From Bdellovibrionota bacterium (GTDB lineage Bacteria > Bdellovibrionota_C > UBA2361 > JAFLCA01), in contig JBIKUD010000004.1 of assembly GCA_044347745.1 (NCBI GenBank), positions 2,132 to 66,131 of the forward strand: a stretch of 64,000 bases of DNA. The letters run 5' to 3'. Positions 13,972 through 61,896 of this stretch are shown piece by piece. The position numbers and the translations under genes were made by a program. Below the pieces are notes generated by a model, which was not told the DNA's origin, made no database searches, and was given only the letters and a program-made list of their open reading frames with translations. Within the stretch, counting starts at the first letter, position 1. Every line of letters starts with the position of its first letter.

Positions 13972-15285
13972 ATGAAAACCAATGCGTTTAATCGCCGCAT
14001 CAAAGCTTGTCTCACAATTCTAAAAAGTAGCGTCAATCAAAGCGCACTGCTGCTCTCTTCGCATCCACCCGTCATACGTAGCCATGACACCCATTATCCA
14101 TATAAACAACAAAGCGACTTCTACTATCTGACTGGTTCAGAAATACAGAATTCGGCCCTGCTAATATCGAGTAAGTTAAAACACCCCATACTTTTTGCGC
14201 CTCCGCAAGATGCACACAAGACACTTTGGGAGGGGAAACAACCCAATCCAAAAATATTGGCACAGCAAATAGGAGCAGAGCTTAAAGTAGCGAAGGACAT
14301 GAGAGCGGAAGTGCTTGCGGCGCTTCGTGGGCACGATCAGTTATTGTTTCAGAACATACCGGGAAGTCTTAGTTTCAAAATTACAAGTGAACTTATTGCC
14401 ATACCTTCCTATGCCCGAGGCAATTTACCATCGCAGTTCAGTCACTCCGATGTACTTCTGGAACGCCTACGGCTCTTTAAAGATGCTGAGGAAGTGGAAA
14501 CTATTAGAGCCGCTAACGAGATTACTTCAGAGGCACTTTTGTTTGTAGCGGCAAAAATCCAACCGGGACAATTTGAATATGAAGTAGCGAGAACCCTTGA
14601 GTACATTTTTGGCATGAACAAATGCTCCCCTGCGTTCAATTCTATCATTGCCGCCGGTAAAAACGCAGCCACGCTACACTACGAGGCGCTTAATTCGAGG
14701 ATCGGCAAAAATGATATGGTACTGATTGATTCAGGAGCTCAACTAGATAATTACTGTGCCGACATTACAAGAATGCTCCCCGCCAGCGGGCAATTCAGCC
14801 CAATCCATAAATGCGTCTACGAGACAGTTCTGGCGGCACAATACGCAGCTCTGAAAAAAGTGAGGCACGGGGTGAAAATAGCTGAAGTGTACAACGCGGC
14901 AGCTGAGGTTTTAGTGGAAGGACTCTGCGAGCTAAAGGTGCTGCGTGGCACTCGCAAATCGATTATGAAAAATAAAGCCTTTAAACCCTATTTCCCACAT
15001 GGAATTGGGCATAGCCTAGGGCTTGATGTCCACGACCTCAGTCAATTACGTGGGAACAATGAGGCCGTGCTGGAAGCCGGCATGGTTTTCACTGTTGAAC
15101 CCGGCTTATATTTTGCGAAAGCCCAGGGGCAAGTTCCCGCTTGCGGCGTGCGCTTAGAGGACAATGTACTTGTAACAAACAAAGGCTGCGAAATCTTAAG
15201 TCCAGGGTTCCCTAAAGAGACGGATGAGATTGAGGCGCTAATGGAAGCACATGCGTTCGCCGGGAAAAACCGAGAAACGCTTTAA
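13972..15285 (+). CDS. Xaa-Pro aminopeptidase (M24B family)
   Basis: M24 metal-ligand motifs ([15 protein letters not shown]; [13 protein letters not shown]; EPGLY) with N-terminal creatinase-like domain; last ~14 codons and the stop lie inside repeat-element copy 1. Confidence 0.85.
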
Positions 15286-15739
15286 ATTGCCGGAAGTTGA
15301 GCTCGTAAGGAGCCCAAAATAATTGCAAGGGCAAATCGATTTCGAGCTCAATTCCTTTCAATTATTCAATCGTTTTAAATATGCCCACCCCAGCCGCGCC
15401 ATGCGCGGCTCCCCTGAAAGGGGTGTGCGTTCATACTTTGTTCCGAAGCTCGGGACCTTATTGCGAGGTGCCTCTACGGCAGGAAAGCATTCGGCCCACA
15501 GAAGGACTCACGAAAATAGCCAGTAAGCGAGGCCTAGCGAAACTTGAGCGAGGCAAGGATGCAGGGTCAAAAAGCGCGGAGCTGTATCTATTTGGGATAC
15601 AGCGAGCACATTTTGCCCCGAAGACGCAGCATCGCTCGAGTAGCAGCAGGCCGTAGCTCTGGATATTATTGTGAGCCCTTCTATACTTCGCGCCTCGTCT
15701 GAACGCATTTTGCCGACGAACAGAAACATAAAAGAGCTG
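15254..15739 (-). repeat. Copy 1 of a 4-copy structured repeat element (minus orientation), with ~190-nt internal expansion in hairpin 1
   Basis: Shares GCGTTCAGACGAGGCGCGA...GGAACAAAGTATGAACGC core (rc at 15427-15706) and terminal sequences nearly identical to copy 4 (15254-15300 rc vs 61846-61890; 15700-15730 rc vs 61647-61680). Confidence 0.8.
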
Positions 15740-15771
15740 CGTTTGCCTTAAGACTTTGCCAAAACTAAATT

Positions 15772-17499
15772 CTACACGGTGAGCACATGCGCAATAATCT
15801 TCTTTCTAAACTCCTCGAAGCCAACTCTCTTGAGCGCCGAAACTGCTACTGCATCATACTGTGCTGATAGATTTGCCACGATCGCTGGATCTTGAGCATC
15901 AATTTTATTAAGCACGTTCACTATGGGAGTATTTCCAAGCTCCATAGTTTGTAGCGTCGCTTCAACCGCAGCTTTCTTTTCAGCTACTTCGGGGTCAGAG
16001 GCATCCAGCACGTGCACTAAAACCGCAGCATCGTATAGTTCCTCAAGCGTGGCTCGAAATGCCGTGCGAAGTTCTTCAGGTAAATCGCGGATAAAACCTA
16101 CGGTATCGGAGAGAATAACGGGAGCTAATGTTACCTGCCCTTCTGGTCCGATTTGATTGAGGGTTATGCGCCGCTGTGCCGGATCAAGGGTGGCAAATAA
16201 TTTATTCTCAGCAAGTACCGTGCTTTGGGTTAAAGCATTAAAAAAGGTACTTTTACCTACGTTGGTGTACCCAAGAATTGCCACAAGCGGGACTCCCCGA
16301 TCCTGACGTTTACTTCTTCTGAGGTGGCGTTGCTCCCCAAGCTTATCTATTCGTCGTTCTAGGTCGACGATACGATCACGAATGCGTCTGCGGCCAATTT
16401 CTAATTTTGTTTCACCTGGTCCCCGACCACCAATTCCACCACTCAAGCGCGAAAGCCCAGTATCTTTTTCAACGAGACGAGGCAGATTGTACTTAAGCTG
16501 GGCAAGCTCAACCTGCAAGCGACCTTCGCTACTCGTCGCTCGTTGAGCGAAAATATCCAAAATGAGCATGCTCCGGTCAATAACTTTAAGATCAGTCATT
16601 TTGGTAATAATGCGCCATTGTCCTGGCTTTAGTTCTCCGTCAAATATGAGCATTTCAGCGCCAAGGGCGAGACAACGGAGTACCACTTGCTCCAATTTGC
16701 CCTTACCGAGGAGCGATCGAGGATCGGGGGTTCGTCGCTGCACAAAGGTATCGACGATGGCAACTCCCGCAGTGCGGGCCAGCTCACGCAGTTCAAGCAT
16801 CGAACTTTCAACCGCTTTCGCCGATTTTTCGTAGACACCAACGAGTACTGCTTTGACTCCCTGCACCTCTTTTGCGCTTGATTGCATCGCCTGAAGCTCG
16901 GCTTCAAGCTCTGCCAAAAACTCAGCGCAATTAAACTCAAAGCGACCTAAATCTGGAACTTTTTCGGTGCGTGAAAGGGGGTCGGCTTCAAGCCCAGGGG
17001 GAACTATGTAGGCATAAGCCATGCTCGTTTTTTTCTCGTCCCCTTTCAACGAAACTACCATATCAAGGCGCAGCTTATGCAAATCGGTGAAATGGTCTTG
17101 AGGGATTTGAGGTTCAGAAGTACTCGTTGACAAATCACTAAACAAGAGTCGCAGGCGTCGCAGGCGTCCGGGCCCTAATCGGTAACGTCCCAAATCAGGA
17201 AGATACAAAATTTCGCGTGAACCAATAAAAACCTCCTCTACTCGCCCCTCGCGAGAAACAAGCATACCGATGCGGCGTTTTATGGTGTGTGCGGCGCGCA
17301 AAATTTCACGTGCTACATCCAACGGCACAATCTCATCGCTTGAAAAACGACGGGAAAATAACTTTTGCACCATGCGAATTTCGCTTGGACTAAGTCCTTT
17401 GGTATTACCTTCAATATTCTGTGACATATTATTTTGAGCGTCCTTTTTTGAGGCTGGCCGAACGGGCATTCTAGTCGCGGCTTCAAATAAGCCAAGCAA
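15772..17499 (-). CDS. hflX: GTPase HflX with long N-terminal extension
   Basis: HflX N-domain and G-domain (GYTNVGKSTFFNALT, DTVGF); 575 aa vs ~430 typical. Confidence 0.85.
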   Translation of the reverse strand: MLGLFEAATRMPVRPASKKDAQNNMSQNIEGNTKGLSPSEIRMVQKLFSRRFSSDEIVPLDVAREILRAAHTIKRRIGMLVSREGRVEEVFIGSREILYLPDLGRYRLGPGRLRRLRLLFSDLSTSTSEPQIPQDHFTDLHKLRLDMVVSLKGDEKKTSMAYAYIVPPGLEADPLSRTEKVPDLGRFEFNCAEFLAELEAELQAMQSSAKEVQGVKAVLVGVYEKSAKAVESSMLELRELARTAGVAIVDTFVQRRTPDPRSLLGKGKLEQVVLRCLALGAEMLIFDGELKPGQWRIITKMTDLKVIDRSMLILDIFAQRATSSEGRLQVELAQLKYNLPRLVEKDTGLSRLSGGIGGRGPGETKLEIGRRRIRDRIVDLERRIDKLGEQRHLRRSKRQDRGVPLVAILGYTNVGKSTFFNALTQSTVLAENKLFATLDPAQRRITLNQIGPEGQVTLAPVILSDTVGFIRDLPEELRTAFRATLEELYDAAVLVHVLDASDPEVAEKKAAVEATLQTMELGNTPIVNVLNKIDAQDPAIVANLSAQYDAVAVSALKRVGFEEFRKKIIAHVLTV

Positions 17500-43408: not shown

Positions 43409-44148
43409 TTCCTCCCCGCATTATCCCTACCTTACTTTTGGATAGCGGCAAGCTCGTTAAAACTACGCGTTTTAAGTCTCCCCGCTATATTGGAGATCCT
43501 ATAAATGCGGTTAGAATCTTTAACGAGAAAGAAGTTGACGAACTAATCGTCATCGACATTTCAGCGAGCCTGCAAAAACGGGAGCCTCCCCTAAAATTAA
43601 TTGGGGAACTGGCAAGTGAATGTTTTATGCCACTTTGTTATGGTGGAGGGATTCATACCCTCGGCCAAGCCCGAGCAATAATTGATAGCGGGGTTGAGAA
43701 AATCTGCTTCCAGAGCGGAGCCTTTCAGAATTTAAACCTCATTGAAGAGTGTGCCAAAAATTTTGGCTCCCAAGCTATAGTGATTTCTATCGACGTGAAC
43801 CGCGGTCTCTTTGGTGGCCTAAAGCTGCACTCTGCAACGGGACTGCACCCAAAATACTCTCCAGCTGAGTTTGCTCAAACGGCCGTAAATGCTGGCGCGG
43901 GAGAGATTTTACTCTGTGCGGTACACCGCGAAGGTACATTTGAAGGTTATGATTTGCCCCTCATTCGAGAAATAAGTTCCTGCGTCAGCGTTCCCGTAAT
44001 TGCCCTTGGCGGCGCAAGAGATTACCAAAACTTGCTCGATGCGATTGAGGCCGGCGCATCCGCTGCCGCGGCAGGCAGTTTGTTTGTCTATCATGGCCGA
44101 CATAAAGCGGTGCTTATCAATGTGCCCAAATCAGCGGTTAATGCTTAA
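43405..44148 (+). CDS. Imidazole-glycerol-phosphate-synthase cyclase subunit HisF-like (WbuZ-like)
   Basis: (beta/alpha)8 HisA/HisF family, 247 aa, coupled to HisH-like gene. Confidence 0.8.
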   Translation: MIPPRIIPTLLLDSGKLVKTTRFKSPRYIGDPINAVRIFNEKEVDELIVIDISASLQKREPPLKLIGELASECFMPLCYGGGIHTLGQARAIIDSGVEKICFQSGAFQNLNLIEECAKNFGSQAIVISIDVNRGLFGGLKLHSATGLHPKYSPAEFAQTAVNAGAGEILLCAVHREGTFEGYDLPLIREISSCVSVPVIALGGARDYQNLLDAIEAGASAAAAGSLFVYHGRHKAVLINVPKSAVNA

Positions 44149-44163
44149 CGCTTACTGTATGAG

Positions 44164-44493
44164 GAGCGTTTTTCGGATTTTCACGGAGAACGGGCGCTGT
44201 TTGAATGGGGCGTTTTTGCCCGAGGGATGAATCGAGTTTTCAACTCTTAGTTTCTCGTTCTCCCTCAAAATGCGTTCAGACGAGGCGCGAGGCTTGTGTG
44301 GCAACCGAGTGGTACAGAATGTACCTCGCAGGGAGCCTCCAAGCCTCGGAACAAAGTATGAACGCAACGAAAAGCGCATCCAGAATTGCAAGGGATTGAG
44401 CTCTTGGTGCCCCCTTCCCTGCAATGATCTAGGGCAAATCACGAGCTCAACTCCCCGCAATTCAGAGCGTTTTTCGGATTTTCACGGAGAACG
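44164..44493 (+). repeat. Copy 2 of the structured repeat element (plus orientation), flanked by perfect 29-bp direct repeats
   Basis: DRs GAGCGTTTTTCGGATTTTCACGGAGAACG at 44164-44192 and 44465-44493; hairpin 1 at 44272-44365, hairpin 2 at 44396-44450. Confidence 0.85.
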
Positions 44494-45281
44494 AACCATT
44501 TAAAGGGGATACACGGCTTCCTATACAAATGCGGGGGTATCTTATCTGCAATTTCAGCGTGAAACTCGGGAAGTTTTGACCAATGCAGTCCGGGTTTTAC
44601 ATGATGAGCTGTATGATACCCCAAGTTGCCGGTGCAGAGATTATAGGTTGGATGCATTATATTATAAGAGGCTTCATACTCATTAGGGGTATCTAATCCG
44701 GCGTGATGATAGTAAGTGTGCCAACAAGTGGCGATGTATCCCCAAGTCATAGGAAGCCAAAACACAAACAGCGCAGGCAAAGGTCTTTGCACGGTCAAGA
44801 GAAGCAGCACACAAGCCACAAGGAATGTCGCGCTTAGAAATCCGCGTTGGTACTTTGGATGCTGTCTTCCTACTTGAAAAGCTCGCCAATACCCCGTTGC
44901 CGCGATGGTAAGTGTATACTCAACGGCACCCATAGTGGTGCCGTCTTTACGCTGCCATCCTGACTCGTCTTTCTTTTGATCGGTGTAATTAATGTGATGA
45001 CCCAGCACGTGGTGCAATACCCAGGCGTTTGTCGTAATGCCTGTGTGCAAGGCATACACTATTTCGAGCATCCGATTCAGAATCAAAGATTTAAAGGTCG
45101 GAAGATGCTGGTGATGGTGATTCCAGGAGCAAATACAGGCCTTTGGGAAGAGCATTAATACGAACCAGAAGCTTAAGTACCAAGGTGAATCAACGAGGGC
45201 GTACACCAGCAAATCAAAGGCAAATAACCCCACTATAATAATAGTGGGACAACGGTCAGCCTGATAACGAAAAATGCCCAT
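44439..45281 (-). CDS. Membrane fatty-acid-desaturase-family (di-iron His-box) protein
   Basis: His boxes HHQHL, HHVLGHH, HTAHHVKP; start set to internal Met to avoid 90-bp overlap; last ~20 codons and stop come from repeat copy 2. Confidence 0.6.
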   Translation of the reverse strand: MGIFRYQADRCPTIIIVGLFAFDLLVYALVDSPWYLSFWFVLMLFPKACICSWNHHHQHLPTFKSLILNRMLEIVYALHTGITTNAWVLHHVLGHHINYTDQKKDESGWQRKDGTTMGAVEYTLTIAATGYWRAFQVGRQHPKYQRGFLSATFLVACVLLLLTVQRPLPALFVFWLPMTWGYIATCWHTYYHHAGLDTPNEYEASYNIMHPTYNLCTGNLGYHTAHHVKPGLHWSKLPEFHAEIADKIPPHLYRKPCIPFKWFVLRENPKNALNCGELSS

Positions 45282-45295
45282 ACTACATCCTAAAC

Positions 45296-46765
45296 CTAGG
45301 TTCCCACCGCGCTTAGTACACTTGACGCTTGCTTGGACCACTGCCCCCGGCCAAGCGAAGTCAATTTCATTCGGCGGCGATGCCAATGACGGGTAAGCTC
45401 GTGGGGCGTGCCAACAAATATCGTCGGATCGCTTAACTGCGATTGCAATAACGCTAAAAAACTATCGGTAAAACCAGCAAAAAGCCATTGGTTGCATCCC
45501 GTTTCCGTATGCCAATCAACCACGGCGCAGAGTCCCCTCTCCTGAATTAATTTAAGTACATGCATTGCTGCTTCGAGCGCAATTCCTTCATCGGAAAATC
45601 CTCTTAACTTTGCATCTGCTGTTGGCAAGACGTGTTTCTCGAGCAAACAGGTTGGAAACACATACATATCAAGCGGTTTTTCCCGTTCAAGGTCATATGG
45701 TCGGTACGGTAAGGCAGTGCCAGCCCGAAATCCTGGAATATCTCTCCAGGCAATCGACATGTCATAGCGAAAGCCAGCATTTACATGTTTTCTATGCGTT
45801 CGATGCGGTTTTTCCCAATCAAGAGCCCAGTAATGATGCCGCAAACCCCAAATGGGAGTTTCAAGTTTCTCCTCCAAAAACTTTTTGGCATGAATGAAAT
45901 AATCCAAAGATTTTTTAGCCTCGATACCTGCATGCAACCCAAACTCCCAGCCCTGCTGGCTCAAGGTTCTTAGCGGCTGCCAAAGCGCATCATCTGTTTT
46001 GGGATGAAAATAACTTTTACAATCATTCAGAGTTCTATGAGTGCCAAAAGCCGCTGTAGAGAGCAAAAAGCAAGACTTGGCAGCAAACTGATTCTCAAGG
46101 TCGGCCCAATTTTGGAAGCAAAAATAAGGATCCTGAATAATCGGGGCCCGGCGCGCTTTAAGACTTGCCCAGAGTAAATCTTTGTAAACCGGCAACCGGC
46201 GTCGAGCCCATTTCGCTACCAACGCACATAGTTCGTTCATAGACCCAAGTTGAAGGGCGTCGGTGTCATGTGTAACAACGAGGGCAGATTTTTTTCCTCC
46301 TGGCCAAAGCGTTTCGGTTTCGCCGAGGAGATTTTCGTACCTCGCTTTAAACGCCAAGGCACACTCATCAACCAGCGGACGGGCAGCAACCGCCTGCCTC
46401 CACTCAGGAAGCACAGAGGAATAGAATATTCCGCGATCATCACGGCAGTTCTCTCCAATTTCTTGCTCATCTAAGAAAGTGAGCAAGCGAAAAGTCAGGC
46501 CAATACAATCGAAGCCAGGCTCAAGGTAATTTTGGTAAGCTTGCCGAAGAGTTGCCGATAATTTTTTTTCGAAATACCATTCAGGCTCACAACGAATTAC
46601 TTCCTTCCCGCTCAGCGCAGAACAGTTGGAATTTGTGTAGACCCAATGAGCAGACTCGATAGTATCTTCTAATTGCAGGGCCACTCCCAGCCTGAGCGCA
46701 AATTCCTGCCACGCATATTCAACGCGCGGTCTTAGTTGTGAGGGAACATCAATAAAAAGCTTCAT
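45296..46765 (-). CDS. Hypothetical protein (possibly carbohydrate esterase/deacetylase-like)
   Basis: 489-aa ORF in the polysaccharide locus; motif VVTHDTDA and His-rich segments; no confident family. Confidence 0.45.
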   Translation of the reverse strand: MKLFIDVPSQLRPRVEYAWQEFALRLGVALQLEDTIESAHWVYTNSNCSALSGKEVIRCEPEWYFEKKLSATLRQAYQNYLEPGFDCIGLTFRLLTFLDEQEIGENCRDDRGIFYSSVLPEWRQAVAARPLVDECALAFKARYENLLGETETLWPGGKKSALVVTHDTDALQLGSMNELCALVAKWARRRLPVYKDLLWASLKARRAPIIQDPYFCFQNWADLENQFAAKSCFLLSTAAFGTHRTLNDCKSYFHPKTDDALWQPLRTLSQQGWEFGLHAGIEAKKSLDYFIHAKKFLEEKLETPIWGLRHHYWALDWEKPHRTHRKHVNAGFRYDMSIAWRDIPGFRAGTALPYRPYDLEREKPLDMYVFPTCLLEKHVLPTADAKLRGFSDEGIALEAAMHVLKLIQERGLCAVVDWHTETGCNQWLFAGFTDSFLALLQSQLSDPTIFVGTPHELTRHWHRRRMKLTSLGRGQWSKQASSVLSAVGT

Positions 46766-48216
46766 GGTACACTCTTACTGAGCTGAGAACGAAGATTCAA
46801 GGCCCGCCAAGCCCACCATGCGACCATACACAACAACGCAAGGCAAAATTGGATCAGCACTGAATCTAACACGAGCGAGAGCAACACGAGAATAAAAAGC
46901 GAACTGCCCAAGCTCATGAGAATTGAGGCACCCAATGCAATCAAAGCTGTAACAGGCATGCCCGCGTAGGAATAAATAAACCAAAGATAAGCAACATGAT
47001 ACAAGACCGCACACACGGTAAATGCCTGAACCACCACAAGAGAGCTCCCGCCCCCAGCTAACAACAGATAGACAACAGCCATATTTATTAAATCAGCAAC
47101 AAGCTGCAACAAAAAGACCACCCGCTGTTTGCCCGCAACTTCAAATATACGCTCTGGCCAGCTCGTGAAGGCTAAACAATAGCCCACCACAGCCATCACA
47201 CTACAAAAAGTTCCCGCTTGGGCCCATTGCTGCCCCATCAGCAAAGGGAAGAGCTGCGGAGAAAACCACACAAGCAGCGCGAGCCCCGGAGTAGCAAACT
47301 CTGCCAAAAGCTGCATCAAACGTCTCGTCAGCTTTGTAAACGCTTCAGTACCTAAAGAAAGCGCAGCTTCCCGAAAAAATACCCTCCCCAGCGATACCGA
47401 AAGGACCGCCATCGGCGAAAAAAGCAAAGTGCGACAAAGCGCAACGTAACCCGCATCAGCATTTCTCCCAAACGCCAATAAAAAGACCGCCAAAAATCCG
47501 CCCGAAAAATTAGTAAGCAAAGAATGTGGAATATTGTAGAGCGGGAAAGCGCGGTAGTACCAAGCTACCTGAGACAGATACCCGAGCTGTCTCTTGCGAT
47601 TTTGATAGATGCGCTGACATTCGGCGGTCAGTTGGCGCCAGAGTGGAAGTAGGCCCACAAAGCGCCCTGCTGCATGGCCCCAGAGTAGCCCCGTGCTGCC
47701 AAGACTAGCGCAACCGATTTTGCCGGCGGCTGAGGCCAACTGCATAAGGAGCATATTTTGGGACAAGCTAGCATAGCGCTCTTTCCGATTGAGCACATAC
47801 GAGCCAAATTCGGCCAGACCGACCACTGCGACTGTCAGTGGTAAGGCGATAAGCCAAGTTGAAGGTACAAGCTGAACGTAATAAAATCCTATCAAAAGCA
47901 GAGCAAAGAGGATTAGAGATAAAGTTATCACCAATCCCACCCCCATACAGGTCACCGCAGAAGCCCGACGCGGATTACGTGGAAGCAGCACCGCAAGCTC
48001 ATAGCGTCCGGTAACCACAGCCCCGCATAGCCCGGCTGCAAGCATAAAGGCAGCATAGTTACCAAAGGCTTCTGGAGAATAGAGCCTCGATAAAATGGGT
48101 AATACCGCAAAAGGGACGAGCTGGGCACACACCGAGCCCGTAAGTAGCACTGCCGCCTTCTTTAAAAGCGTTCCCATAGAACGGGTATTGGTGTTGACGT
48201 CGGTGTGCGAAAGCAT
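46762..48216 (-). CDS. Wzx-like polysaccharide flippase (MOP/PST family)
   Basis: ~12-14 TM helices, 484 aa, polysaccharide-biosynthesis-protein N-terminal pattern. Confidence 0.75.
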   Translation of the reverse strand: MLSHTDVNTNTRSMGTLLKKAAVLLTGSVCAQLVPFAVLPILSRLYSPEAFGNYAAFMLAAGLCGAVVTGRYELAVLLPRNPRRASAVTCMGVGLVITLSLILFALLLIGFYYVQLVPSTWLIALPLTVAVVGLAEFGSYVLNRKERYASLSQNMLLMQLASAAGKIGCASLGSTGLLWGHAAGRFVGLLPLWRQLTAECQRIYQNRKRQLGYLSQVAWYYRAFPLYNIPHSLLTNFSGGFLAVFLLAFGRNADAGYVALCRTLLFSPMAVLSVSLGRVFFREAALSLGTEAFTKLTRRLMQLLAEFATPGLALLVWFSPQLFPLLMGQQWAQAGTFCSVMAVVGYCLAFTSWPERIFEVAGKQRVVFLLQLVADLINMAVVYLLLAGGGSSLVVVQAFTVCAVLYHVAYLWFIYSYAGMPVTALIALGASILMSLGSSLFILVLLSLVLDSVLIQFCLALLCMVAWWAWRALNLRSQLSKSVP

Positions 48217-48339
48217 CTTAGTGCGTAGGCCAATTCCCAGAATTATTGAGACCTGATGTTTTAAGTAAAAAAACTATTGAGCCCCTAGCCTACTCTTAGG
48301 ATATAGTTAGCTCAATCACTTATCCGCCCTTCACAACTC

Positions 48340-49488
48340 ATGAAAGCGTACCAAATATGTAATTCCTGTGTCATGGATACAAGCGATCCTCAGATTCGCT
48401 TCGATTCTCATGGCGTATGTAATCATCATGCTGAATATGCCGACACCTGCGCCTCTCAGCTTTTGCCCTCTCCCGCCCGTGAACAGGCACTTGAGCGTGT
48501 CGTTGCTCAAATGAAATCTGAAGGTAAAGGCAAACCGTATGACTGTGTCTTGGGACTTAGCGGCGGCGTAGACAGCTCCTACATGGCGCTACTGGTGCAC
48601 CGACTCGGACTACGACCTCTCGTCGTGCATTTTGATAATGGATGGAATTCAGAGTTGGCAGTAAGCAACATAGAAAAAATCCTCACCAAACTTCAATTTG
48701 ATCTCGAAACTTATGTCGTAGACTGGGAAGAGTTTAGAGATTTACAAGTCGCTTTCCTCAAAGCATCAGTTGCGAATGCTGAGTATCCTACCGATCATGG
48801 GATATTCGCCTGCCTCTACCGCTCCGCCGCCAAACACGGAATTCGTTATGTGCTGAGCGGGAGCAATCTACAATCGGAGGGGATTCTTCCTGCCAGCTGG
48901 GAATATCACTACATGGACTATCGCCACCTTCGGGCTATTCACGCTCAATTTGGCACTCGACCACTTAAGACGTTTCCCACACTTAGTTTTAGCCGCTACC
49001 TTTATTATTTCTACGTTAAGCGACTGCAGAAGGTACGGTTATTGCAGTTTGTCGATTATCACAAAGAATCCGCTATAGCTGAATTAAAGAATTTTTTTGA
49101 TTGGCGTTATTACGGCGGAAAACATTACGAATCGTTGTTTACAAAATTTCATCAAGGTTTTTATCTTCCTAAAAAATTCGGAATCGACAAGCGCCGAGCC
49201 CATCTTTCATCGTTAATAGTCTCGGGGCAAATAACGAGAGAGGAGGCCCTGAAGGAGCTAGAAAAGCCGGCGTATCCAGAAGCCGAATTGGAAACTGACC
49301 TAAACTACATGCGGAAAAAGCTGGAACTAAGCGAAGAAGACTTCAGCCAAATCTTAAATTCGAAACCTAGGGCCTATTCCGAATACCCCAACAATAATAA
49401 GTTGTTCGAATTTTTGCGCTCAGGTCGTTCAAATCTTCGATCACTGATCCAGCACCGGCAAAACACATTCAATCCAAAGCCGGTGTAG
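48340..49488 (+). CDS. N-acetyl sugar amidotransferase, WbuX/WbpG/PseA family, paralogue 2
   Basis: Same 4-Cys N-terminus and PP-loop LGLSGGVDSSY; nucleotide stretch GGAATTCAGAGTTGGC shared with paralogue 1. Confidence 0.8.
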   Translation: MKAYQICNSCVMDTSDPQIRFDSHGVCNHHAEYADTCASQLLPSPAREQALERVVAQMKSEGKGKPYDCVLGLSGGVDSSYMALLVHRLGLRPLVVHFDNGWNSELAVSNIEKILTKLQFDLETYVVDWEEFRDLQVAFLKASVANAEYPTDHGIFACLYRSAAKHGIRYVLSGSNLQSEGILPASWEYHYMDYRHLRAIHAQFGTRPLKTFPTLSFSRYLYYFYVKRLQKVRLLQFVDYHKESAIAELKNFFDWRYYGGKHYESLFTKFHQGFYLPKKFGIDKRRAHLSSLIVSGQITREEALKELEKPAYPEAELETDLNYMRKKLELSEEDFSQILNSKPRAYSEYPNNNKLFEFLRSGRSNLRSLIQHRQNTFNPKPV

Positions 49489-49491
49489 TCG

Positions 49492-50280
49492 ATGAAACTT
49501 GCCCTTCTTGGAATGCCAGACAACGACAACACCCGCCAATTTAGGCTGTACTTAGAGTCTGAGTTTGCGGACTGGGAACTCTCAGTAATTTATTGGAAGC
49601 CTGATTTTAGAAATCAGCTTCAAAGAACCCTGCGTAAGCTCAGACTGGCTGGTGCAAAGGCCACCACTCAGAGAATTTCTCAAGCACTCAAAATTAAAAA
49701 ATCGAGACGGAGGAACGAGCAATTCCTAAAATACGCCGATACAACAAAAGAGTTTTGGGTATCCCATCATAACTCCGAGCACTGCGCCGAAATTATTATA
49801 AAGCAAAAAATCGACCTGGTTCTGCTCTCAACCGATGCTATTTTAACCAAAAAGGTACTGAGAGCCCCTCGACTACTCACCCTGAATGCTCACCCTGGAC
49901 TCACCCCCCGCTATCGCGGGCTTGGCTCCCTTTTTTACATGCTTCAAGATGGGCTACAGCCGGTAGTCAGCGTTCACGCCGTCGACGAAGGTATAGATAC
50001 AGGGCCGCTTTTATATCGAGAAGTGGTGCCGGTTGACCCCAAAACTGGCTTGGAGTCTATAGTGAACACCGTGCTTACGCAGCGACTTTCTATTGTTGGC
50101 AAAGTATTGCGTGCTATCGAGTTAGATGGTCCCACATATCAAGATACCTTCTTAGAGCAAAGTGCGATGACCAGAGGCATGCCACTTGCCGAACGACAAA
50201 ATCTCGACGAAGCATTAAAAACCGGAAAGATACAATTAACTCTCCCCCAGCATGAGTTTCAGGATAATTGGGCGCCCTGA
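49492..50280 (+). CDS. Formyltransferase-domain protein (sugar N-formyltransferase-like)
   Basis: Formyl_trans_N signature NAHPGLTPRYRGLG (cf. HPSLLPxxRG). Confidence 0.7.
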   Translation: MKLALLGMPDNDNTRQFRLYLESEFADWELSVIYWKPDFRNQLQRTLRKLRLAGAKATTQRISQALKIKKSRRRNEQFLKYADTTKEFWVSHHNSEHCAEIIIKQKIDLVLLSTDAILTKKVLRAPRLLTLNAHPGLTPRYRGLGSLFYMLQDGLQPVVSVHAVDEGIDTGPLLYREVVPVDPKTGLESIVNTVLTQRLSIVGKVLRAIELDGPTYQDTFLEQSAMTRGMPLAERQNLDEALKTGKIQLTLPQHEFQDNWAP

Positions 50281-50417
50281 TTTTCTAAACGCCGTTTAAT
50301 TTACTGTTGTCAGTTGAACTACGCACATGTAAATATTTTTCTAGTTCCCGTGCGCTGTGCGAAGCTACTGCATCATTATAGAGAACGCACCGAGCTTGAG
50401 GTTTAAAAAGGTAGGCT

Positions 50418-52340
50418 GTGGTATCTCGATTAGAAACTCTCCTCATTCGTGTTAGACTCCCCCTCATTCTGTGCCTAGGGCTTATTCTTACCTCCCTCAG
50501 CTACACCCTAGCCTTAGGCCTACGCTTTGATTTTGATTGGAACGAAGTATTTCTTCTCGATCGCTTTTTATTGCCCTGGAGCCTCCTTCTTTTTTATCGG
50601 GCAGCCAGTTATTCGTTTTTTCAATTAAATCGCGGTTATTGGCGTTATGCTTCAACTCAAGACCTTATAGACATCATTAAGGCACACGGGCTTTCGAGTC
50701 TATTTTTAACCGCAACAGCTCTATTTTTGCGTCTGGAAGAATTCCCACGCTCCGTAGTTCTTATAGAACTCGCCATTTCGATTATATTTTGTGGCGGTAG
50801 CCGATTGGCAGTCCGTGTATTAGGTGAGCGCCTCGTGGCCCAGCAAGATATGGAGGAAGATACTGCCCGAGACGTAATCGTTATCGGCGCTGGTGATTCA
50901 GGGCATCTTATAATTAAAAACATGCTCAGTTTAAAGCGACTCTCGTATAGACCCGTAGCAGTGTTGGACGATAGCGACAATCTGCAGGGAGTCAACTTGT
51001 ACGGCGTGAAGGTAGTTGGACGAATCACTAATCTCGAAGAACAACTAGAAAAGTTTCCTAGAGTCAGCGCAGTTATTGTAGCAATTCCCACAATTTCGAA
51101 TACGCGTCTTCGCAGCATTGAGGCAGTTTGCAAAACCTTTGGAGTGGCACTTAAAAAACTCCAATCATTTGAAGATATCGCTTGCATCGACGCCTCTGTT
51201 AAGCACGAGGGCGTAAGCATCGAACAGGTGCTTGAAAAGAAAACTCAAATTGAACATGAAGATGAAATTCGTAGAGAACTGAATAATCGCACCATACTGA
51301 TTACCGGAGCTGGCGGCTCTATTGGTTCGGAAATTGTGCGCCAGGTCTGTTATTTTGACCCCCATAAAGTGGTACTTCTCGATAGCTCTGAATACAATCT
51401 CTTTCGAATGGAGCGAGAACTACACACAGCCTTTGAGCGTGGAGGAAAAAAAGCTGAATTCCGCTGCGTAGTGGCAAATATTGTTGATGCCGCGAGACTA
51501 AGCAAAATTTTCAGTTCCGAAAAACCTGAATATGTCTTTCACGCCGCAGCCTATAAGCACGTGCCACTTATGGAGCATAACTGCTACGAGGCCTTTCGTA
51601 ATAATGTAATTGGCACCAAAAATGTACTGGATGCCTCAGTGCAGTTTGGAGTGCGGCGCTTTGTGCTTATCTCCAGCGACAAAGCTGTGGCTCCGTCAAG
51701 CATTATGGGATGCTCAAAGCTTTTGGCTGAACTGCTCGTACAATGGTACTCGCATACCCAGCAAACCACAGCTAGCAATCACCCACTTGCCACCTCAATC
51801 GTCCGCTTTGGAAACGTGATCAACAGTACAGGCAGTGTCATTCCGATATTTAAAGAGCAGATTTTAAGTGGTGGTCCTGTGACTATCACCCACCCAGACA
51901 TGGAGCGCTATTTCATGTCTATTCGTGAAGCAGTGCGTCTTGTGCTTACCGCAGGGACTCTCGGTCAGAAAGGAGAAATTTATATTCTCGACATGGGACG
52001 CCCGATGAAGATTGTAGATGTAGCGCGTAAAATGATGGCGCTCTACGGTCGCCGCGACATTGAAATTGAGTACACCGGCATGCGGCCTGGGGAAAAGCTC
52101 ACGGAGGAGTTACTCACCTCGCATGAACTACGGGGACCAACTCGGTTTGATAAAGTAAACAGAGTGCAAAACTTTGAGCCACCAAGCATCGACATTTCTC
52201 GTTGGGTACTGGAGGTAGAACAAAAGCTGCCACGCCTCTCTGATACCGAGATACGAGATCTCATGTTTACGCTTGCGAATACTGCCTGCCCTTCGGCATC
52301 TCCAGTAGCGCAACCAAAGACAACAGCCAAAGTTGCCTAG
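50418..52340 (+). CDS. Membrane-anchored UDP-N-acetylglucosamine 4,6-dehydratase (WbpM/PglF/CapD family)
   Basis: Four N-terminal TM helices, then short-chain dehydrogenase ILITGAGGSIGSEI and CapD-type catalytic region; 640 aa. Confidence 0.85.
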   Translation: MVSRLETLLIRVRLPLILCLGLILTSLSYTLALGLRFDFDWNEVFLLDRFLLPWSLLLFYRAASYSFFQLNRGYWRYASTQDLIDIIKAHGLSSLFLTATALFLRLEEFPRSVVLIELAISIIFCGGSRLAVRVLGERLVAQQDMEEDTARDVIVIGAGDSGHLIIKNMLSLKRLSYRPVAVLDDSDNLQGVNLYGVKVVGRITNLEEQLEKFPRVSAVIVAIPTISNTRLRSIEAVCKTFGVALKKLQSFEDIACIDASVKHEGVSIEQVLEKKTQIEHEDEIRRELNNRTILITGAGGSIGSEIVRQVCYFDPHKVVLLDSSEYNLFRMERELHTAFERGGKKAEFRCVVANIVDAARLSKIFSSEKPEYVFHAAAYKHVPLMEHNCYEAFRNNVIGTKNVLDASVQFGVRRFVLISSDKAVAPSSIMGCSKLLAELLVQWYSHTQQTTASNHPLATSIVRFGNVINSTGSVIPIFKEQILSGGPVTITHPDMERYFMSIREAVRLVLTAGTLGQKGEIYILDMGRPMKIVDVARKMMALYGRRDIEIEYTGMRPGEKLTEELLTSHELRGPTRFDKVNRVQNFEPPSIDISRWVLEVEQKLPRLSDTEIRDLMFTLANTACPSASPVAQPKTTAKVA

Positions 52341-52409
52341 GCGCCATTTATTTCCGATATCGCCGCAGCGAAGTCCCTGTGGATATTAAATTTTATAAGG
52401 AGCCCCTGG

Positions 52410-52688
52410 ATGGGGTGCTCTACCCCCTGCGTACTTGGACTTTCTTTAGAGCACTTAGTGGCATATACTAAGCAAATGGGTGGCGATAGTTTTTCATTTT
52501 GGCGTTTCGACTTGGCTCAAGTCTTGAAGGCGCTTTTTGTTATTTTGCTTCTTAGAGGCATTACCATCTTGTTGGGTTTTGAGCAGCAAGTGCCAATTGT
52601 TGACGACATTCTAAATGTGCTTGTTAATGCGGCTAAGGTGATGGCAGAAGCGATTAGTGGGTTTGTGCGCGGCCGCACAAGCTTCTAA
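52410..52688 (+). CDS. Small hypothetical membrane protein (92 aa), doubtful
   Basis: ORF ending exactly at repeat copy 3; hydrophobic stretch; no homology recognised. Confidence 0.25.
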   Translation: MGCSTPCVLGLSLEHLVAYTKQMGGDSFSFWRFDLAQVLKALFVILLLRGITILLGFEQQVPIVDDILNVLVNAAKVMAEAISGFVRGRTSF

Positions 52689-52689
52689 G

Positions 52690-53029
52690 CGCGCTGTGAA
52701 AAACGTAAAAATGCTTTAAATTGCAGAAATTCCGGCTCGAGAAAAACAGGACTCTCTTGACGGATAATTTGTAGCTCGAGCCCAATTCCTTGCAATTTTG
52801 GCCGCATTTTTACTCGCGTTCATACTTTGTTCCGAGGCTCGAAGTCTCCCTGCGAGGTGCATTGAGCACCACTCAGTCGCCATCAAGCCTCGCGCCTCGT
52901 CTGAACGCATTTTGACAGCGCGCTCAGAAAACAACTAACTCGCCTTGCACGATTTTCAAGAAGCCCATCTGTTTTTGTAAATCTTAAATACGCGCTGTGA
53001 AAAACGTAAAAATGCTTTAAATTGCAGAA
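52690..53029 (-). repeat. Copy 3 of the structured repeat element (minus orientation), flanked by perfect 39-bp direct repeats
   Basis: DRs CGCGCTGTGAAAAACGTAAAAATGCTTTAAATTGCAGAA at 52690-52728 and 52991-53029; hairpin 1 rc at 52816-52908. Confidence 0.85.
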
Positions 53030-53043
53030 GTTCTTCTGCTCGC

Positions 53044-59560: not shown

Positions 59561-59638
59561 GTCCCTATCGTCTAGCCCGGTCTAGGACGTCAGCCTTTCA
59601 CGTTGAAAACACGGGTTCGAATCCCGTTAGGGACACCA
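59561..59638 (+). tRNA. tRNA-Glu: tRNA-Glu (anticodon UUC)
   Basis: GTCCCTA acceptor stem pairing with TAGGGAC, anticodon loop CUUUCAC, T-arm GGGTTCGAATCCC, discriminator A + CCA; closely resembles canonical bacterial tRNA-Glu. Confidence 0.85.
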
Positions 59639-61549: not shown

Positions 61550-61585
61550 AAGCGTCACTGTGGTTATATAAGTGGTAATAAAAAA

Positions 61586-61611
61586 GGGCCCTCTCCGGGG
61601 CCCTTTCTATT
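61586..61611. terminator. Rho-independent terminator (bidirectional type)
   Basis: AAAAAA-GGGCCC-tctccg-GGGCCC-TTTCTATT: perfect 6-bp GC stem flanked by A-tract and U-tract. Confidence 0.55.
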
Positions 61612-61632
61612 AAAGTAAAGCCTTGAGGCGAA

Positions 61633-61896
61633 CTTAGCTTTTTCACGTTTCTGTTCGTCGGCAAAATGCGTTCAGACGAGGCGCGAGGTTCGTGGGCCGA
61701 ATGAGTGGTACTATACGTACCTCGCAATGAGGCCCCGAGCCTCGGAACAAAGTATGAACGCAACGAAAAACGCTCCTAGAATTGCTAGGAATTGAGCTCA
61801 AAATCGTTCTTTTTCCTGCAATAATGCGAGGCTTTTAGCGAGCTCAACTTCCTGCAATTTAGAGCGTTTTTCGGTTTTTCCCGGCGAACCTACTCT
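61633..61896 (+). repeat. Copy 4 of the structured repeat element (plus orientation), terminal repeats degenerate
   Basis: Hairpin 1 at 61668-61761, hairpin 2 TTGAGCTC...GAGCTCAA at 61791-61845, right-end block CAATTTAGAGCGTTTTTCGGTTTTTCCCGGCGAACC. Confidence 0.8.

What the first reader, a model, noticed from the sequence alone, without database searches (positions are those of the whole stretch)
52690..53029. Perfect long direct repeats flank individual copies of the element
Copy 3 is bracketed by two identical 39-mers, CGCGCTGTGAAAAACGTAAAAATGCTTTAAATTGCAGAA, at 52690-52728 and 52991-53029. Copy 2 is bracketed by two identical 29-mers, GAGCGTTTTTCGGATTTTCACGGAGAACG, at 44164-44192 and 44465-44493. 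The two direct-repeat sequences are related to each other (rc of the 39-mer TTCTGCAATTTAAAGCATTTTTACGTTTTTCACAGCGCG vs ATTCAGAGCGTTTTTCGGATTTTCACGGAGAACG) and to the single right-end block in copies 1 and 4 (CAATTTA(A/G)AGCGTTT(C/T)TCGGTTTTTCCCGGCGAAC). Repeats that are perfect within a copy but diverged between copies fit site-specific insertion into a conserved ~30-40 bp target that is then duplicated, giving att-like or unusually long target-site-duplication-like repeats. They also fit recent local tandem duplication of the unit. Either way the element is mobile or recombinogenic, not static.
Basis: partly seen in the sequence, partly recalled or inferred. Interest (0 to 1): 0.7.

Follow-up and report, generated by a model that had tools for sequence, protein, structure and literature searches.

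The report
Structured mobile repeat with reiterated tail
The perfect 29- and 39-base repeats are real, but they are two copies of the mobile element's own structured 3' tail joined head-to-tail to its front end, not a duplicated insertion target; the element is an undescribed small non-coding mobile repeat of an uncultured freshwater bacterium.

Summary
Observation confirmed: the identical 39-mers (52690/52991) and 29-mers (44164/44465) are there, both 301 nt apart, and both are related to the 3' block of copies 1 and 4.

Interpretation only partly right. The element is mobile. A sister species has an empty site for copy 1, and there the insertion brought the block with it and duplicated only 6-10 bp of target.

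The block is not target DNA. It forms the 3' strands of the closing stem and of the base of arm B in a conserved Y-shaped fold: 94.6% of cells paired, 19 compensatory pairs against 6.9 expected, G·U 30 against A·C 4 on the sense strand.

In 3 of 7 copies surveyed in ~105 kb of this genome, a second copy of the last ~30-50 nt sits directly in front of the element's 5' end. This gives a head-to-tail junction and 1.1-1.2 unit lengths. No solo blocks, longer arrays or recombinase, transposase or RT genes were seen.

Best reading: a lineage-restricted, non-autonomous element copied through a single-stranded, probably RNA, intermediate. The tail reiteration would come from template switching or a concatemeric template. 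That mechanism is inferred. A DDE-type MITE with short imperfect ends (GTTC...GAAC) remains a serious rival.

No match in Rfam, plasmids, phages or contig collections.

The parts
15256..15781 (-). Copy 1 (526 bp). Boundaries are defined by the empty site. The 5' end is CACCGTGTAGAAT... at 15781 and the 3' end is ...TTTTTCCCGGCGAA(C) at 15256. It has a single 3' block and two private hairpin domains (15501-15685 and 15383-15425).
   Evidence: Sister-species contig L025 has pepP and hflX abutting with no insert; the BLAST HSPs overlap by 10 nt. nhmmer E=9e-80. The extra domains are unique and self-folding.
15246..15255 (.). Target-site duplication of copy 1, left copy (AGCACATGCG). Read as 10 bp, 9 bp (GCATGTGCT in sense) or 6 bp (GCATGT), depending on where the element termini are placed.
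   Evidence: A single AGAACATGCG is present in the empty site of L025.
15782..15791 (.). Target-site duplication of copy 1, right copy (AGCACATGCG).
   Evidence: sequence.
44192..44492 (+). Copy 2, one full unit (301 nt): 5' region, closing-stem 5' strand (~44256-44269), arm A with the invariant core (44266-44289 AAAATGCGTTCAGACGAGGCGCGA), arm B and the 3' block.
   Evidence: Alignments and consensus fold; nhmmer E=1e-96.
44465..44493 (+). It comprises the 3' strands of helix 7 (base of arm B) and helix 1 (closing stem). Its antisense supplies the last ~18 codons and the stop of the desaturase gene.
   Evidence: translation.
44164..44192 (+). Reiterated tail of copy 2 (the left 29-mer): a second copy of the element's last 29 nt, abutting the element's 5' end in a head-to-tail junction. 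A weak, diverged extension may run back to ~44141.
   Evidence: Homology with sister contig L037 ends at ~44140-44163 and no block is present there. The sequence after it aligns with the 5' end of copies 1 and 6.
52690..52990 (-). Copy 3, one full unit (301 nt) on the minus strand. The 3' terminus is at 52690, one base after the stop codon of the 92-aa ORF. The closing stem is fully recoded (GCGCGCTGTC / CACAGCGCG) but still pairs.
   Evidence: nhmmer E=1e-91.
52690..52728 (-).
52991..53042 (-). Reiterated tail of copy 3. It starts 1-2 nt after the CNNM stop codon.
61608..61889 (+). Copy 4. It has a single 3' block ending CCCGGCGAAC at 61889. The 5' boundary is uncertain and lies just after the upstream gene's terminator hairpin (61580-61607).
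   Evidence: The gap at this site is 134 nt in a 79%-identical relative against 351 nt here.

Best explanation
WHAT IT IS (largely shown). The repeats belong to a family of small (~270-310 bp; 526 bp in copy 1), non-coding, non-autonomous mobile elements in an uncultured freshwater bacterium. The nearest named relative is an Oligoflexia MAG at about 60% protein identity.

The element has defined ends. The 5' end reads CACCGTG... or G(T/C)TCACCGTG..., and the 3' end reads ...GCGTTTTTCGGTTTTTCCCGGCGAAC.

Its sense strand folds into a conserved Y shape: a closing stem, arm A with an invariant core, and arm B, a ~32-bp hairpin.

Insertion duplicates only 6-10 bp of target. In 3 of 7 copies, a second copy of the last ~30-50 nt of the tail lies directly in front of the element's 5' end, with 0-3 nt between them. 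Those loci are 1.1-1.2-unit head-to-tail reiterations. The two tails are identical within a copy because both were copied from the same source. They differ between copies because the sources differ (copies are 65-86% identical).

HOW (inferred). New copies are made by copying a single-stranded form of the sense strand, most likely an RNA reverse-transcribed by an enzyme supplied in trans (SINE-like). When the polymerase reaches the 5' end of the template, it sometimes carries on along the 3' end of a second template molecule, or around a circular or concatemeric template. It then stops when it meets the stable arm B hairpin. This leaves a tail fragment ahead of the full unit.
For: Repeats exact and non-random.

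Mobility and short TSD:
- The empty site in sister contig L025 has a single AGAACATGCG where the window has AGCACATGCG on both sides of a 526-bp insert that includes the block.
- Copy 6 has a candidate TSD, TCACTA.

Block is structural:
- Consensus fold with 77 pairs and 94.6% of cells paired.
- 19 pairs have compensatory changes against 6.9±1.9 in shuffles (0/500), and at most 4 in the slid controls. The closing stem has 5 such pairs.
- z = -6.6 for copy 4.

Single-strand and sense bias:
- G·U 28-30 against A·C 4 on fixed helices, p~1e-5.
- Sense consensus energy -83.5 against -69.4 kcal/mol for antisense.
- All six copies are more stable in sense.
- Conserved tandem G·A loop.
- Private hairpin domains sit at loop positions.

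Tail reiteration recurs:
- c2 29/29, c3 39/39 (about 52 nt with an imperfect extension), c5 26/27.
- Single-block copies have no vestigial upstream block.
- The sequence after the 5' tail aligns with the 5' end that the copy-1 empty site defines and that c7 shares.
- The reiterated segments start at internal-loop boundaries of arm B.

Not a pre-existing target:
- No block in L025 or L037 at the corresponding positions.
- No solo blocks in ~105 kb.

No long terminal inverted repeats. The 5'-most ~20 nt are poorly conserved while the 3' end is highly conserved.
Against: - No reverse transcriptase, or any other partner enzyme, was seen. Only ~105 kb of the genome could be inspected.
- No RNA data, so transcription, RNA ends and junction-spanning RNAs are untested.
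- The three tail-reiterated copies and c7 show no flanking short TSD.
- The TSDs can also be read as a fixed 6 bp (c1 GCATGT, c6 TCACTA) next to short imperfect inverted termini. GTTC...GAAC matches 9/11 in c7 but only 5-7/11 in c1 and c6. That fits a DDE transposase.
- G·T wobbles are also tolerated in ssDNA.
- The 5' tail copies are perfect over 29-39 nt but diverged just upstream. A single copying event does not predict this.
- c5 predates the species split, yet its tails differ at 1/27. That hints at constraint or gene conversion rather than a passive scar.
- SINE-like retroposons are, to my knowledge, not established in bacteria.
Confidence: 0.42

Rival explanations
1. DDE-type MITE. The element is an internally deleted insertion sequence moved by a transposase encoded elsewhere. 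It has short imperfect terminal inverted repeats (5' GTTCACCGTGA / 3' TCCCGGCGAAC) and a fixed 6-bp (or 9-bp) target duplication. The extra 5' tail is a remnant of a head-to-tail tandem dimer or circle-junction intermediate of a copy-out/paste-in transposase. The conserved fold would reflect host-level or RNA-level side effects.
For: - Short TSDs abut the termini: c1 GCATGT or GCATGTGCT, perfect, and c6 TCACTA, perfect.
- c6 and c7 both start GTTCA, and all copies except c3 end GAAC. c7's ends match 9/11 as inverted repeats.
- Intergenic position between convergent genes, typical of bacterial MITEs.
- Head-to-tail end junctions are the known intermediates of the IS3, IS30 and IS256 families (my own knowledge).
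Against: - The inverted-repeat match is weak outside c7 (5-7/11), and the 5'-most bases are poorly conserved.
- Copy 1's 5' 'GCT' is better explained as target sequence.
- Strong strand-asymmetric G·U covariation and 65-86% divergence with the fold retained are not expected of a dsDNA transposon substrate.
- No transposase was seen.
- Known dimer or circle junctions do not leave a 30-50-nt partial end.
- No TSD at c7 or around the reiterated copies.
Confidence: 0.25
2. First reader's model. The element integrates site-specifically into a conserved 30-40 bp target (att-like), or makes an unusually long target-site duplication, so that the flanking repeats are target-derived.
For: - The repeats are perfect within a copy and differ between copies.
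- The block has a 9-6-9 dyad architecture (GTTTTTCGG-TTTTTC-CCGGCGAAC) that superficially resembles a recombinase core site, and it can form a small local hairpin.
Against: - The empty site of copy 1 has no block, and the duplication there is 6-10 bp of unrelated sequence.
- No block at the c2 left edge in the sister species.
- The block is part of the element's fold and covaries with an internal strand.
- 4 of 7 copies have only one block.
- No solo blocks in ~105 kb.
- No integrase or recombinase in the window or fetched loci (and the gene lists).
Confidence: 0.04
3. Post-insertion origin or functional retention. The 5' tail copy arose after insertion, or is kept identical to the 3' tail by gene conversion or by selection, because it can pair with the same internal strands (closing-stem 5' strand and helix 7 5' strand). 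This would give the transcript two mutually exclusive closures, as in a switch in the 3' UTR of the upstream gene.
For: - The 5' copy is complementary by construction to the same strands, and a nested 'left-closed' topology is possible.
- c5 is older than the species split but its tails differ at only 1/27, while the species differ by ~13% in the aligned stretch downstream of the FAD gene, coding sequence included.
- There is a sharp boundary between the perfect and diverged parts of the 5' copy.
- The sense strand is co-oriented with the upstream gene in 6/7 copies.
Against: - Minimum-energy folds of c2 and c3 transcripts do not adopt the left-closed form.
- Three independent local duplications with the same geometry are unlikely without a mechanism.
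- 4 of 7 copies lack the 5' copy.
- No regulatory signal is enriched at the ends.
Confidence: 0.12
4. Two successive insertions at the same spot. First a severely 5'-truncated copy (only the last 30-50 nt) inserted, then a full-length copy inserted immediately downstream of it.
For: 5'-truncated insertions and reuse of a regenerated target are known for target-primed retroelements (my own knowledge). The junction carries 0-3 extra nt.
Against: - It requires both insertions to come from the same source, although genomic copies differ by 14-35%.
- It would have to happen three times.
- No isolated truncated tails exist in ~105 kb.
Confidence: 0.06

Closest known systems
Bacterial MITEs / small mobile sequences (e.g. 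ERIC, Correia/NEMIS, RUP, Coxiella and Acinetobacter MITEs; reviews PMC2229807, PMC3184786, PMC10969869 listed)
   Same: Small, non-coding and multi-copy. Intergenic, mostly between convergent genes. Short target duplication. Folds into a stable structure. Remodels the 3' ends of neighbouring ORFs. No enzyme of its own.
   Different: No long terminal inverted repeat; the 'inverted repeat' here is a closing stem whose 5' strand lies ~65 nt inside the element. A three-domain Y fold replaces a simple hairpin. Strong strand-asymmetric covariation. The 3' tail is partially reiterated head-to-tail in 3/7 copies.
SINEs and other target-primed non-autonomous retroposons of eukaryotes (with RT template jumping, as described for R2 and L1)
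   Same: Conserved structured 3' end with a less conserved 5' end. Short, possibly variable TSD or none. Trans-mobilisation. Chimeric insertions in which cDNA continues onto the 3' end of a second RNA.
   Different: Bacterial host. No poly(A) or internal pol III promoter. No RT identified. The RNA intermediate is not shown.
Retrozymes / retroviroid-like elements (PMC4918200, listed)
   Same: Small, non-coding, highly structured, non-autonomous elements. Their genomic copies carry terminal direct repeats, and their replication involves circular or multimeric RNA, so genomic loci exceed one unit.
   Different: Retrozymes have ~350-bp LTR-like repeats containing hammerhead ribozymes. No ribozyme or any Rfam family is detected here at E≤1 in the scans of c1 and c3; the only sub-threshold hits, in the c2 scan, look like chance. 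The repeats are only 29-52 nt.
Rolling-circle transposons (IS91/ISCR, Helitrons)
   Same: One strongly conserved end bearing a hairpin. Read-through or one-ended events that give more than one unit or an extra terminus. No long TIR.
   Different: These elements make no target duplication, whereas copy 1 has a clean 6-10 bp TSD. No HUH gene was seen.
IS200/IS605-derived PATEs and orphan omega/HEARO RNAs
   Same: Strand-specific, structured, non-autonomous elements of a few hundred nt without TIRs.
   Different: They insert without a TSD, next to a fixed tetra- or pentanucleotide. There is no Rfam HEARO or other match here. Copies alternate in orientation within 64 kb.
Retron msr-msd non-coding RNA
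   Same: Topology: a closing stem formed by the 5' and 3' ends, short 5' hairpins and a long 3' hairpin.
   Different: Retron ncRNAs are single-copy and sit next to their RT gene. These copies are dispersed with no adjacent RT, and they insert with a TSD.

Membership tests
   The L025 empty site for copy 1 has no block, only a single 10-mer. L037 has no block at c2's left edge. No solo blocks in ~105 kb.
   The element has no ORF with homologues. 30 window ORFs were scanned by Pfam without an integrase, transposase or RT hit. None appears in the precomputed Pfam lists of the fetched loci.
DDE-type MITE | Terminal inverted repeats recognised by a transposase | tested here: inconclusive
   Only GTTC...GAAC is shared. 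The extended match is 9/11 in c7 but 5-7/11 in c1 and c6. In c1 the outer bases look target-derived.
DDE-type MITE | Target-site duplication of fixed length at every insertion | tested here: inconclusive
   c1 is perfect at 6, 9 or 10 bp. c6 is perfect at 6 bp, or 7/9. None is found at c7 or around c2, c3 and c5.
DDE-type MITE | An autonomous IS with the same ends exists in the genome | not testable with these tools
   Only ~105 kb of the genome was reachable. The element and its termini find nothing in plasmids, phages or viral contigs.
Tandem repeat / satellite | Array of two or more complete head-to-tail units | tested here: not met
   Each reiterated locus holds one unit plus 29-52 nt (1.1-1.17 units). 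nhmmer finds no second body next to any copy.
SINE-like / target-primed retroposon | Conserved 3' end; 5' end less conserved or truncated; no TIR; trans-mobilised | tested here: met
   Alignment A3: the 3' 230 nt are conserved and the 5' ~65 nt poorly so. c4 may be shorter at its 5' end, but its boundary is uncertain. No coding capacity.
SINE-like / target-primed retroposon | RNA intermediate and a reverse transcriptase partner | not testable with these tools
   No transcriptome and no full genome are available. The indirect support is sense-strand G·U tolerance (30 against 4) and better sense-strand folding.
IS200/IS605-type ssDNA transposon derivative (PATE) | Insertion without target duplication next to a fixed short motif | tested here: not met
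   Copy 1 is flanked by a duplicated 6-10-mer that is single in the empty site. The c1 and c6 flanks share no motif.
Rolling-circle transposon (IS91/Helitron) | No target duplication; HUH replicase | tested here: not met
   TSD at copy 1. No HUH/Rep domain in the scanned ORFs.
Any described RNA family (Rfam 15) | Match at or near the family's gathering score | tested here: not met
   At gathering thresholds the window yields only tRNA-Glu. Nothing credible appears at E≤1-10 on c1, c2 or c3.
Retron ncRNA | Single locus immediately upstream of a retron RT gene | tested here: not met
   Seven dispersed copies. Their neighbours are housekeeping genes.

The most novel reading that the evidence does not exclude
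This is a bacterial SINE-like retroposon: a structured non-coding RNA, reverse-transcribed and inserted at staggered nicks by an RT encoded elsewhere in the genome. The reiterated tails record RT template jumping from the 5' end of one RNA to the 3' end of another, or copying of a circular or concatemeric RNA. It would be a class of mobile element not established in bacteria.
Probability: 0.2. Interest if true: 0.85.

Novelty: new variant of a known kind. Interest (0 to 1): 0.5.

Why it matters
If it is only a MITE, this is a new lineage-specific family. It adds a well-delimited example (empty site, TSD, fold) from a barely sampled bacterial group. It also shows how such repeats rewrite the C-termini and stop codons of neighbouring genes.

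The unusual parts are three: a three-domain fold kept by compensatory, G·U-tolerant substitutions across copies that are only 65-86% identical; the lack of convincing terminal inverted repeats; and the recurrent head-to-tail reiteration of the 3' tail. Together they point to copying of a single-stranded template.

If that template is RNA, bacteria would have a SINE-like retroposon. That can be tested directly with metatranscriptomes and read-level data from the same lakes.

The case also carries a practical caution. Perfect flanking repeats that resemble an element's own end should not be read as att sites or long TSDs without an empty-site check.

Tried and rejected
1. Exact-core scans (19-22-mers of the invariant core) of viral, genome and metagenome contig collections returned only chance hits in GC-rich coding DNA.

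2. A 720-aa composite query, made of the element's stop-free frames, was meant to fish out spurious ORFs called on other copies. Nothing scored, probably because word-sharing candidates were swamped. That search was wasted.

3. The exhaustive representative search with the 77-aa spurious ORF did work. It returned the ORF itself and P0122, which led to a second contig with copies c5 and c6.

4. Rfam at gathering and at permissive E-values found nothing.

5. Plasmid and phage BLAST, and a viral scan for the block, found nothing.

6. dif/Xer-like or recombinase core-site reading of the block's 9-6-9 dyad: rejected, because copy 1 inserted into a site without any such sequence and the flanking short repeats differ between copies.

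7. Circle-junction promoter idea (-35 in the tail, -10 in the 5' end): no consistent hexamers across c2, c3 and c5, and promoter-like hits are at chance level.

8. Riboswitch-like 'left-closed' alternative fold: not favoured in minimum-energy folds.

9. Nested-repeat explanation for copy 1's extra segments: rejected, since they are unique.

10. Assembly artefact: rejected, since independent assemblies give identical structures.

11. Inversion between c2 and c3 as the source of the repeats: rejected, because a crossover inside the bodies would have paired unlike tails.

Full report
OBSERVATION

Both repeat pairs exist exactly as described. The 39-mer lies at 52690-52728 and 52991-53029. The 29-mer lies at 44164-44192 and 44465-44493. 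Neither has any further match at up to three mismatches, and neither appears in shuffled sequence. Both pairs are 301 nt apart.

The window holds four copies of one element, in both orientations and all intergenic:
- c1, 15256-15781, sense on the minus strand
- c2, 44164-44493, plus strand
- c3, 52690-53042, minus strand
- c4, ~61608-61889, plus strand

A profile of the four copies finds nothing else in the window except the extra blocks already noted.

WHAT THE BLOCK IS

Aligned in one orientation, the copies share an invariant core, AAAATGCGTTCAGACGAGGCGCGA ... CCTCGGAACAAAGTATGAACGC, and a 3' block, GCGTTTTTCGGTTTTTCCCGGCGAAC.

The sense strand folds into a Y:
- Helix 1 is a closing stem between an internal 5' strand (GTTCGTCGGCAAAA) and the last 13 nt of the block.
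- Arm A comprises helices 2-6 and contains the core.
- Arm B comprises helices 7-8, about 32 bp. The 3' strand of its base is the first half of the block.

On six copies, 94.6% of cells are standard pairs. Nineteen of 77 pairs show changes on both sides, against 6.9±1.9 in 500 shuffles (0/500 reach it) and at most 4 when partners are slid by 1-3 columns. The closing stem alone has five such pairs, because copy 3 has recoded both strands (GCGCGCTGTC / CACAGCGCG).

The block is therefore an integral, covarying part of the element, not flanking DNA.

WHICH STRAND

On the fixed helices there are 28 G·U against 4 A·C cells. Adding symmetric interior positions gives 30 against 4, binomial p about 1e-5. 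The sense alignment gives -83.5 kcal/mol against -69.4 for the antisense, and all six copies fold better in sense. A tandem G·A/A·G loop and a GA/GAACAAAGUA internal loop are conserved.

Copy 1 has two private, self-folding hairpin domains placed in loops, and copy 6 has a shorter one. These features fit selection on a single-stranded sense molecule. RNA is the most natural candidate, though ssDNA is not excluded. No Rfam family matches, even at permissive thresholds.

HOST AND RELATIVES

Flanking proteins place the organism near Oligoflexia/Bdellovibrionota MAGs at only 58-61% identity. The same contigs recur in several freshwater metagenome assemblies. All strains carry identical copies at identical sites, so the insertions are fixed in the species and are not assembly artefacts.

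Short contigs break inside the invariant core. Exact-core scans of the public collections gave only chance hits. The element is also absent from plasmid, phage and viral collections.

A spurious 77-aa ORF called on copy 2 led, through the exhaustive protein search, to a second contig of the same genome with copies c5 and c6. Walking off the window's right end gave c7. That makes seven copies in about 105 kb.

MOBILITY AND THE REAL TARGET DUPLICATION

A sister species (PepP 92% identical, sample SRR30274993) has pepP and hflX abutting with no insert. Where it has a single AGAACATGCG, the window has AGCACATGCG on both sides of the 526-bp copy 1. The insertion delivered the block as its 3' end into a site that had none, and it duplicated only 6-10 bp.

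Copy 6 has a matching hexamer, TCACTA, at both ends. Copy 7 shares copy 1's 5' terminus CACCGTG, so both ends of the element are defined.

In a 79%-identical relative, gene spacing leaves no room for c3 (CNNM abuts the next ORF) or for c4 (a 134-nt gap against 351 nt here). Downstream of the hisF-like gene, the sister species loses homology right at the left edge of c2's 5' block and has no block there, although that locus is rearranged.

By contrast, the sister species does carry the element's 3' end at the orthologous c5 position, after the same terminator hairpin. Its contig breaks 19 nt into the block. So c5 predates the species split and the family is multi-copy in both species.

WHAT THE DIRECT REPEATS ARE

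In c2, c3 and c5, a second copy of the element's tail lies upstream. It is 29/29 in c2, 39/39 in c3 (about 52 nt with an imperfect extension) and 26/27 in c5. Within 0-3 nt it is followed by sequence that aligns with the 5' end defined in c1 and c7.

These loci are therefore head-to-tail reiterations of 1.1-1.2 units. The four single-block copies show no vestige of an upstream tail. No orphan tails occur in the surveyed sequence.

The reiterated segments begin at internal-loop boundaries of arm B: the helix 7/8 junction in c2 and c5, and the bulge within helix 8 in c3, with a weaker extension to the top of the arm. Copies differ from each other by 14-35%, whereas the two tails of one locus are identical or nearly so. 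That is what is expected if both tails were copied from one source in a single event.

MECHANISM (INFERRED)

My preferred model is that the sense strand is copied from a single-stranded template by an enzyme supplied in trans. After reaching the template's 5' end, the polymerase sometimes continues on the 3' end of a second template, or round a circular or concatemeric one. It then stops at the stable arm B hairpin.

Three things make me favour an RNA template and a reverse transcriptase (SINE-like): the G·U-tolerant covariation, the conserved 3' end against a loosely conserved 5' end, and the lack of convincing terminal inverted repeats. The steps shown are mobility, short TSD, element origin of the repeats, the head-to-tail junction, the fold and the strand bias. 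The steps inferred are the RNA intermediate, RT involvement and template switching.

WEAKNESSES AND RIVALS

- No partner enzyme was seen among 30 window ORFs or in the gene lists of the fetched loci. Only a small part of the genome was accessible.
- The short duplications can be read as a fixed 6 bp next to the termini GTTC...GAAC (9/11 inverted match in c7, weaker elsewhere). A DDE-type MITE whose reiterated tail derives from a dimer or circle junction remains a serious rival.
- The three reiterated copies and c7 lack a detectable short TSD.
- The sharp change from perfect to diverged sequence within the 5' tail copies is not predicted by a passive scar. Nor is the near-identity of c5's two tails despite its age. 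Both leave room for gene conversion or a functional role, although minimum-energy folds do not favour an alternative 'left-closed' structure and no promoter or terminator signal is enriched.

COMPARISON AND NOVELTY

The closest known kind is the bacterial MITE or 'small mobile sequence'. This family shares the size, the lack of coding capacity, the intergenic position, the short TSD and the effects on neighbouring ORFs.

It departs from that kind in several ways. It has a three-domain covarying fold. Its inverted repeat is internal rather than terminal. It shows strand asymmetry. Its 3' tail is recurrently reiterated. These are features better known from eukaryotic SINEs, from retrozyme or retroviroid-like elements, and from read-through products of rolling-circle transposons.

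Literature searches found no description of a comparable bacterial element. I rate it a new variant of a known kind, of moderate interest. There is a roughly one-in-five chance that it is a genuinely new class, a bacterial SINE-like retroposon.

Noticed in passing
window 15256-15285; 44439-44493; 44141-44148; L029 9825-9842: The element rewrites the 3' ends of neighbouring genes. pepP reads 9 extra codons and its stop out of copy 1's block (the sister protein is 8 aa shorter). The desaturase takes its last ~18 codons and its stop from the antisense of copy 2's block. The hisF-like and PEMT stop codons lie in the diverged part of the 5' tail copies.
   Followed up: partly
all seven copies (window c1-c4; L029 9841-10179 and 16467-16783; L041 706-978): The 3' end of every copy faces the stop codon of a convergent gene, within 10 nt in 6 of 7. 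The sense strand is co-oriented with the gene immediately upstream in 6 of 7. This could reflect target preference or simply survivorship between convergent genes.
   Followed up: partly
window 44164-53042: Copies 2 and 3 are in inverted orientation, with their 3' ends facing inward, and bracket an 8.2-kb polysaccharide-biosynthesis segment. In a 79%-identical relative, CNNM, a small ORF and a desaturase are directly adjacent. The sister species diverges exactly at copy 2's left edge. The segment is therefore variable, and the geometry resembles a composite transposon.
   Followed up: no
window 15501-15685 and 15383-15425; L029 c6 arm A: Copy 1 carries two private, strongly self-folding hairpin domains (185 and 43 nt) inserted at loop positions of the fold, and copy 6 has a 29-nt one. 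They are not repeated anywhere in the sequence surveyed.
   Followed up: yes
alignment A3 columns 311-312/370-371 and 104-105/386-395 (e.g. window 44277-44278 and 44350-44359 in copy 2): A tandem G·A/A·G 2x2 internal loop is conserved in five of the six copies (copy 2 has A·A at one position), and a GA / GAACAAAGUA asymmetric loop is invariant in the six aligned copies (c7 reads CAACAAAGUA). Both look like RNA tertiary or protein-binding motifs.
   Followed up: no
L042 1744-1764 (sister species) against L029 10160-10180: Copy 5's 3' end is present at the orthologous site in the sister species, while copy 1's site is empty there. So insertions of different ages coexist. The sister's block matches the focal 5' tail copy, not the focal 3' block, at the one position where they differ.
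   Followed up: yes
window 59561-59638: A single tRNA-Glu(UUC) gene lies about 2 kb upstream of copy 4. It has no detectable relation to the element.
   Followed up: no
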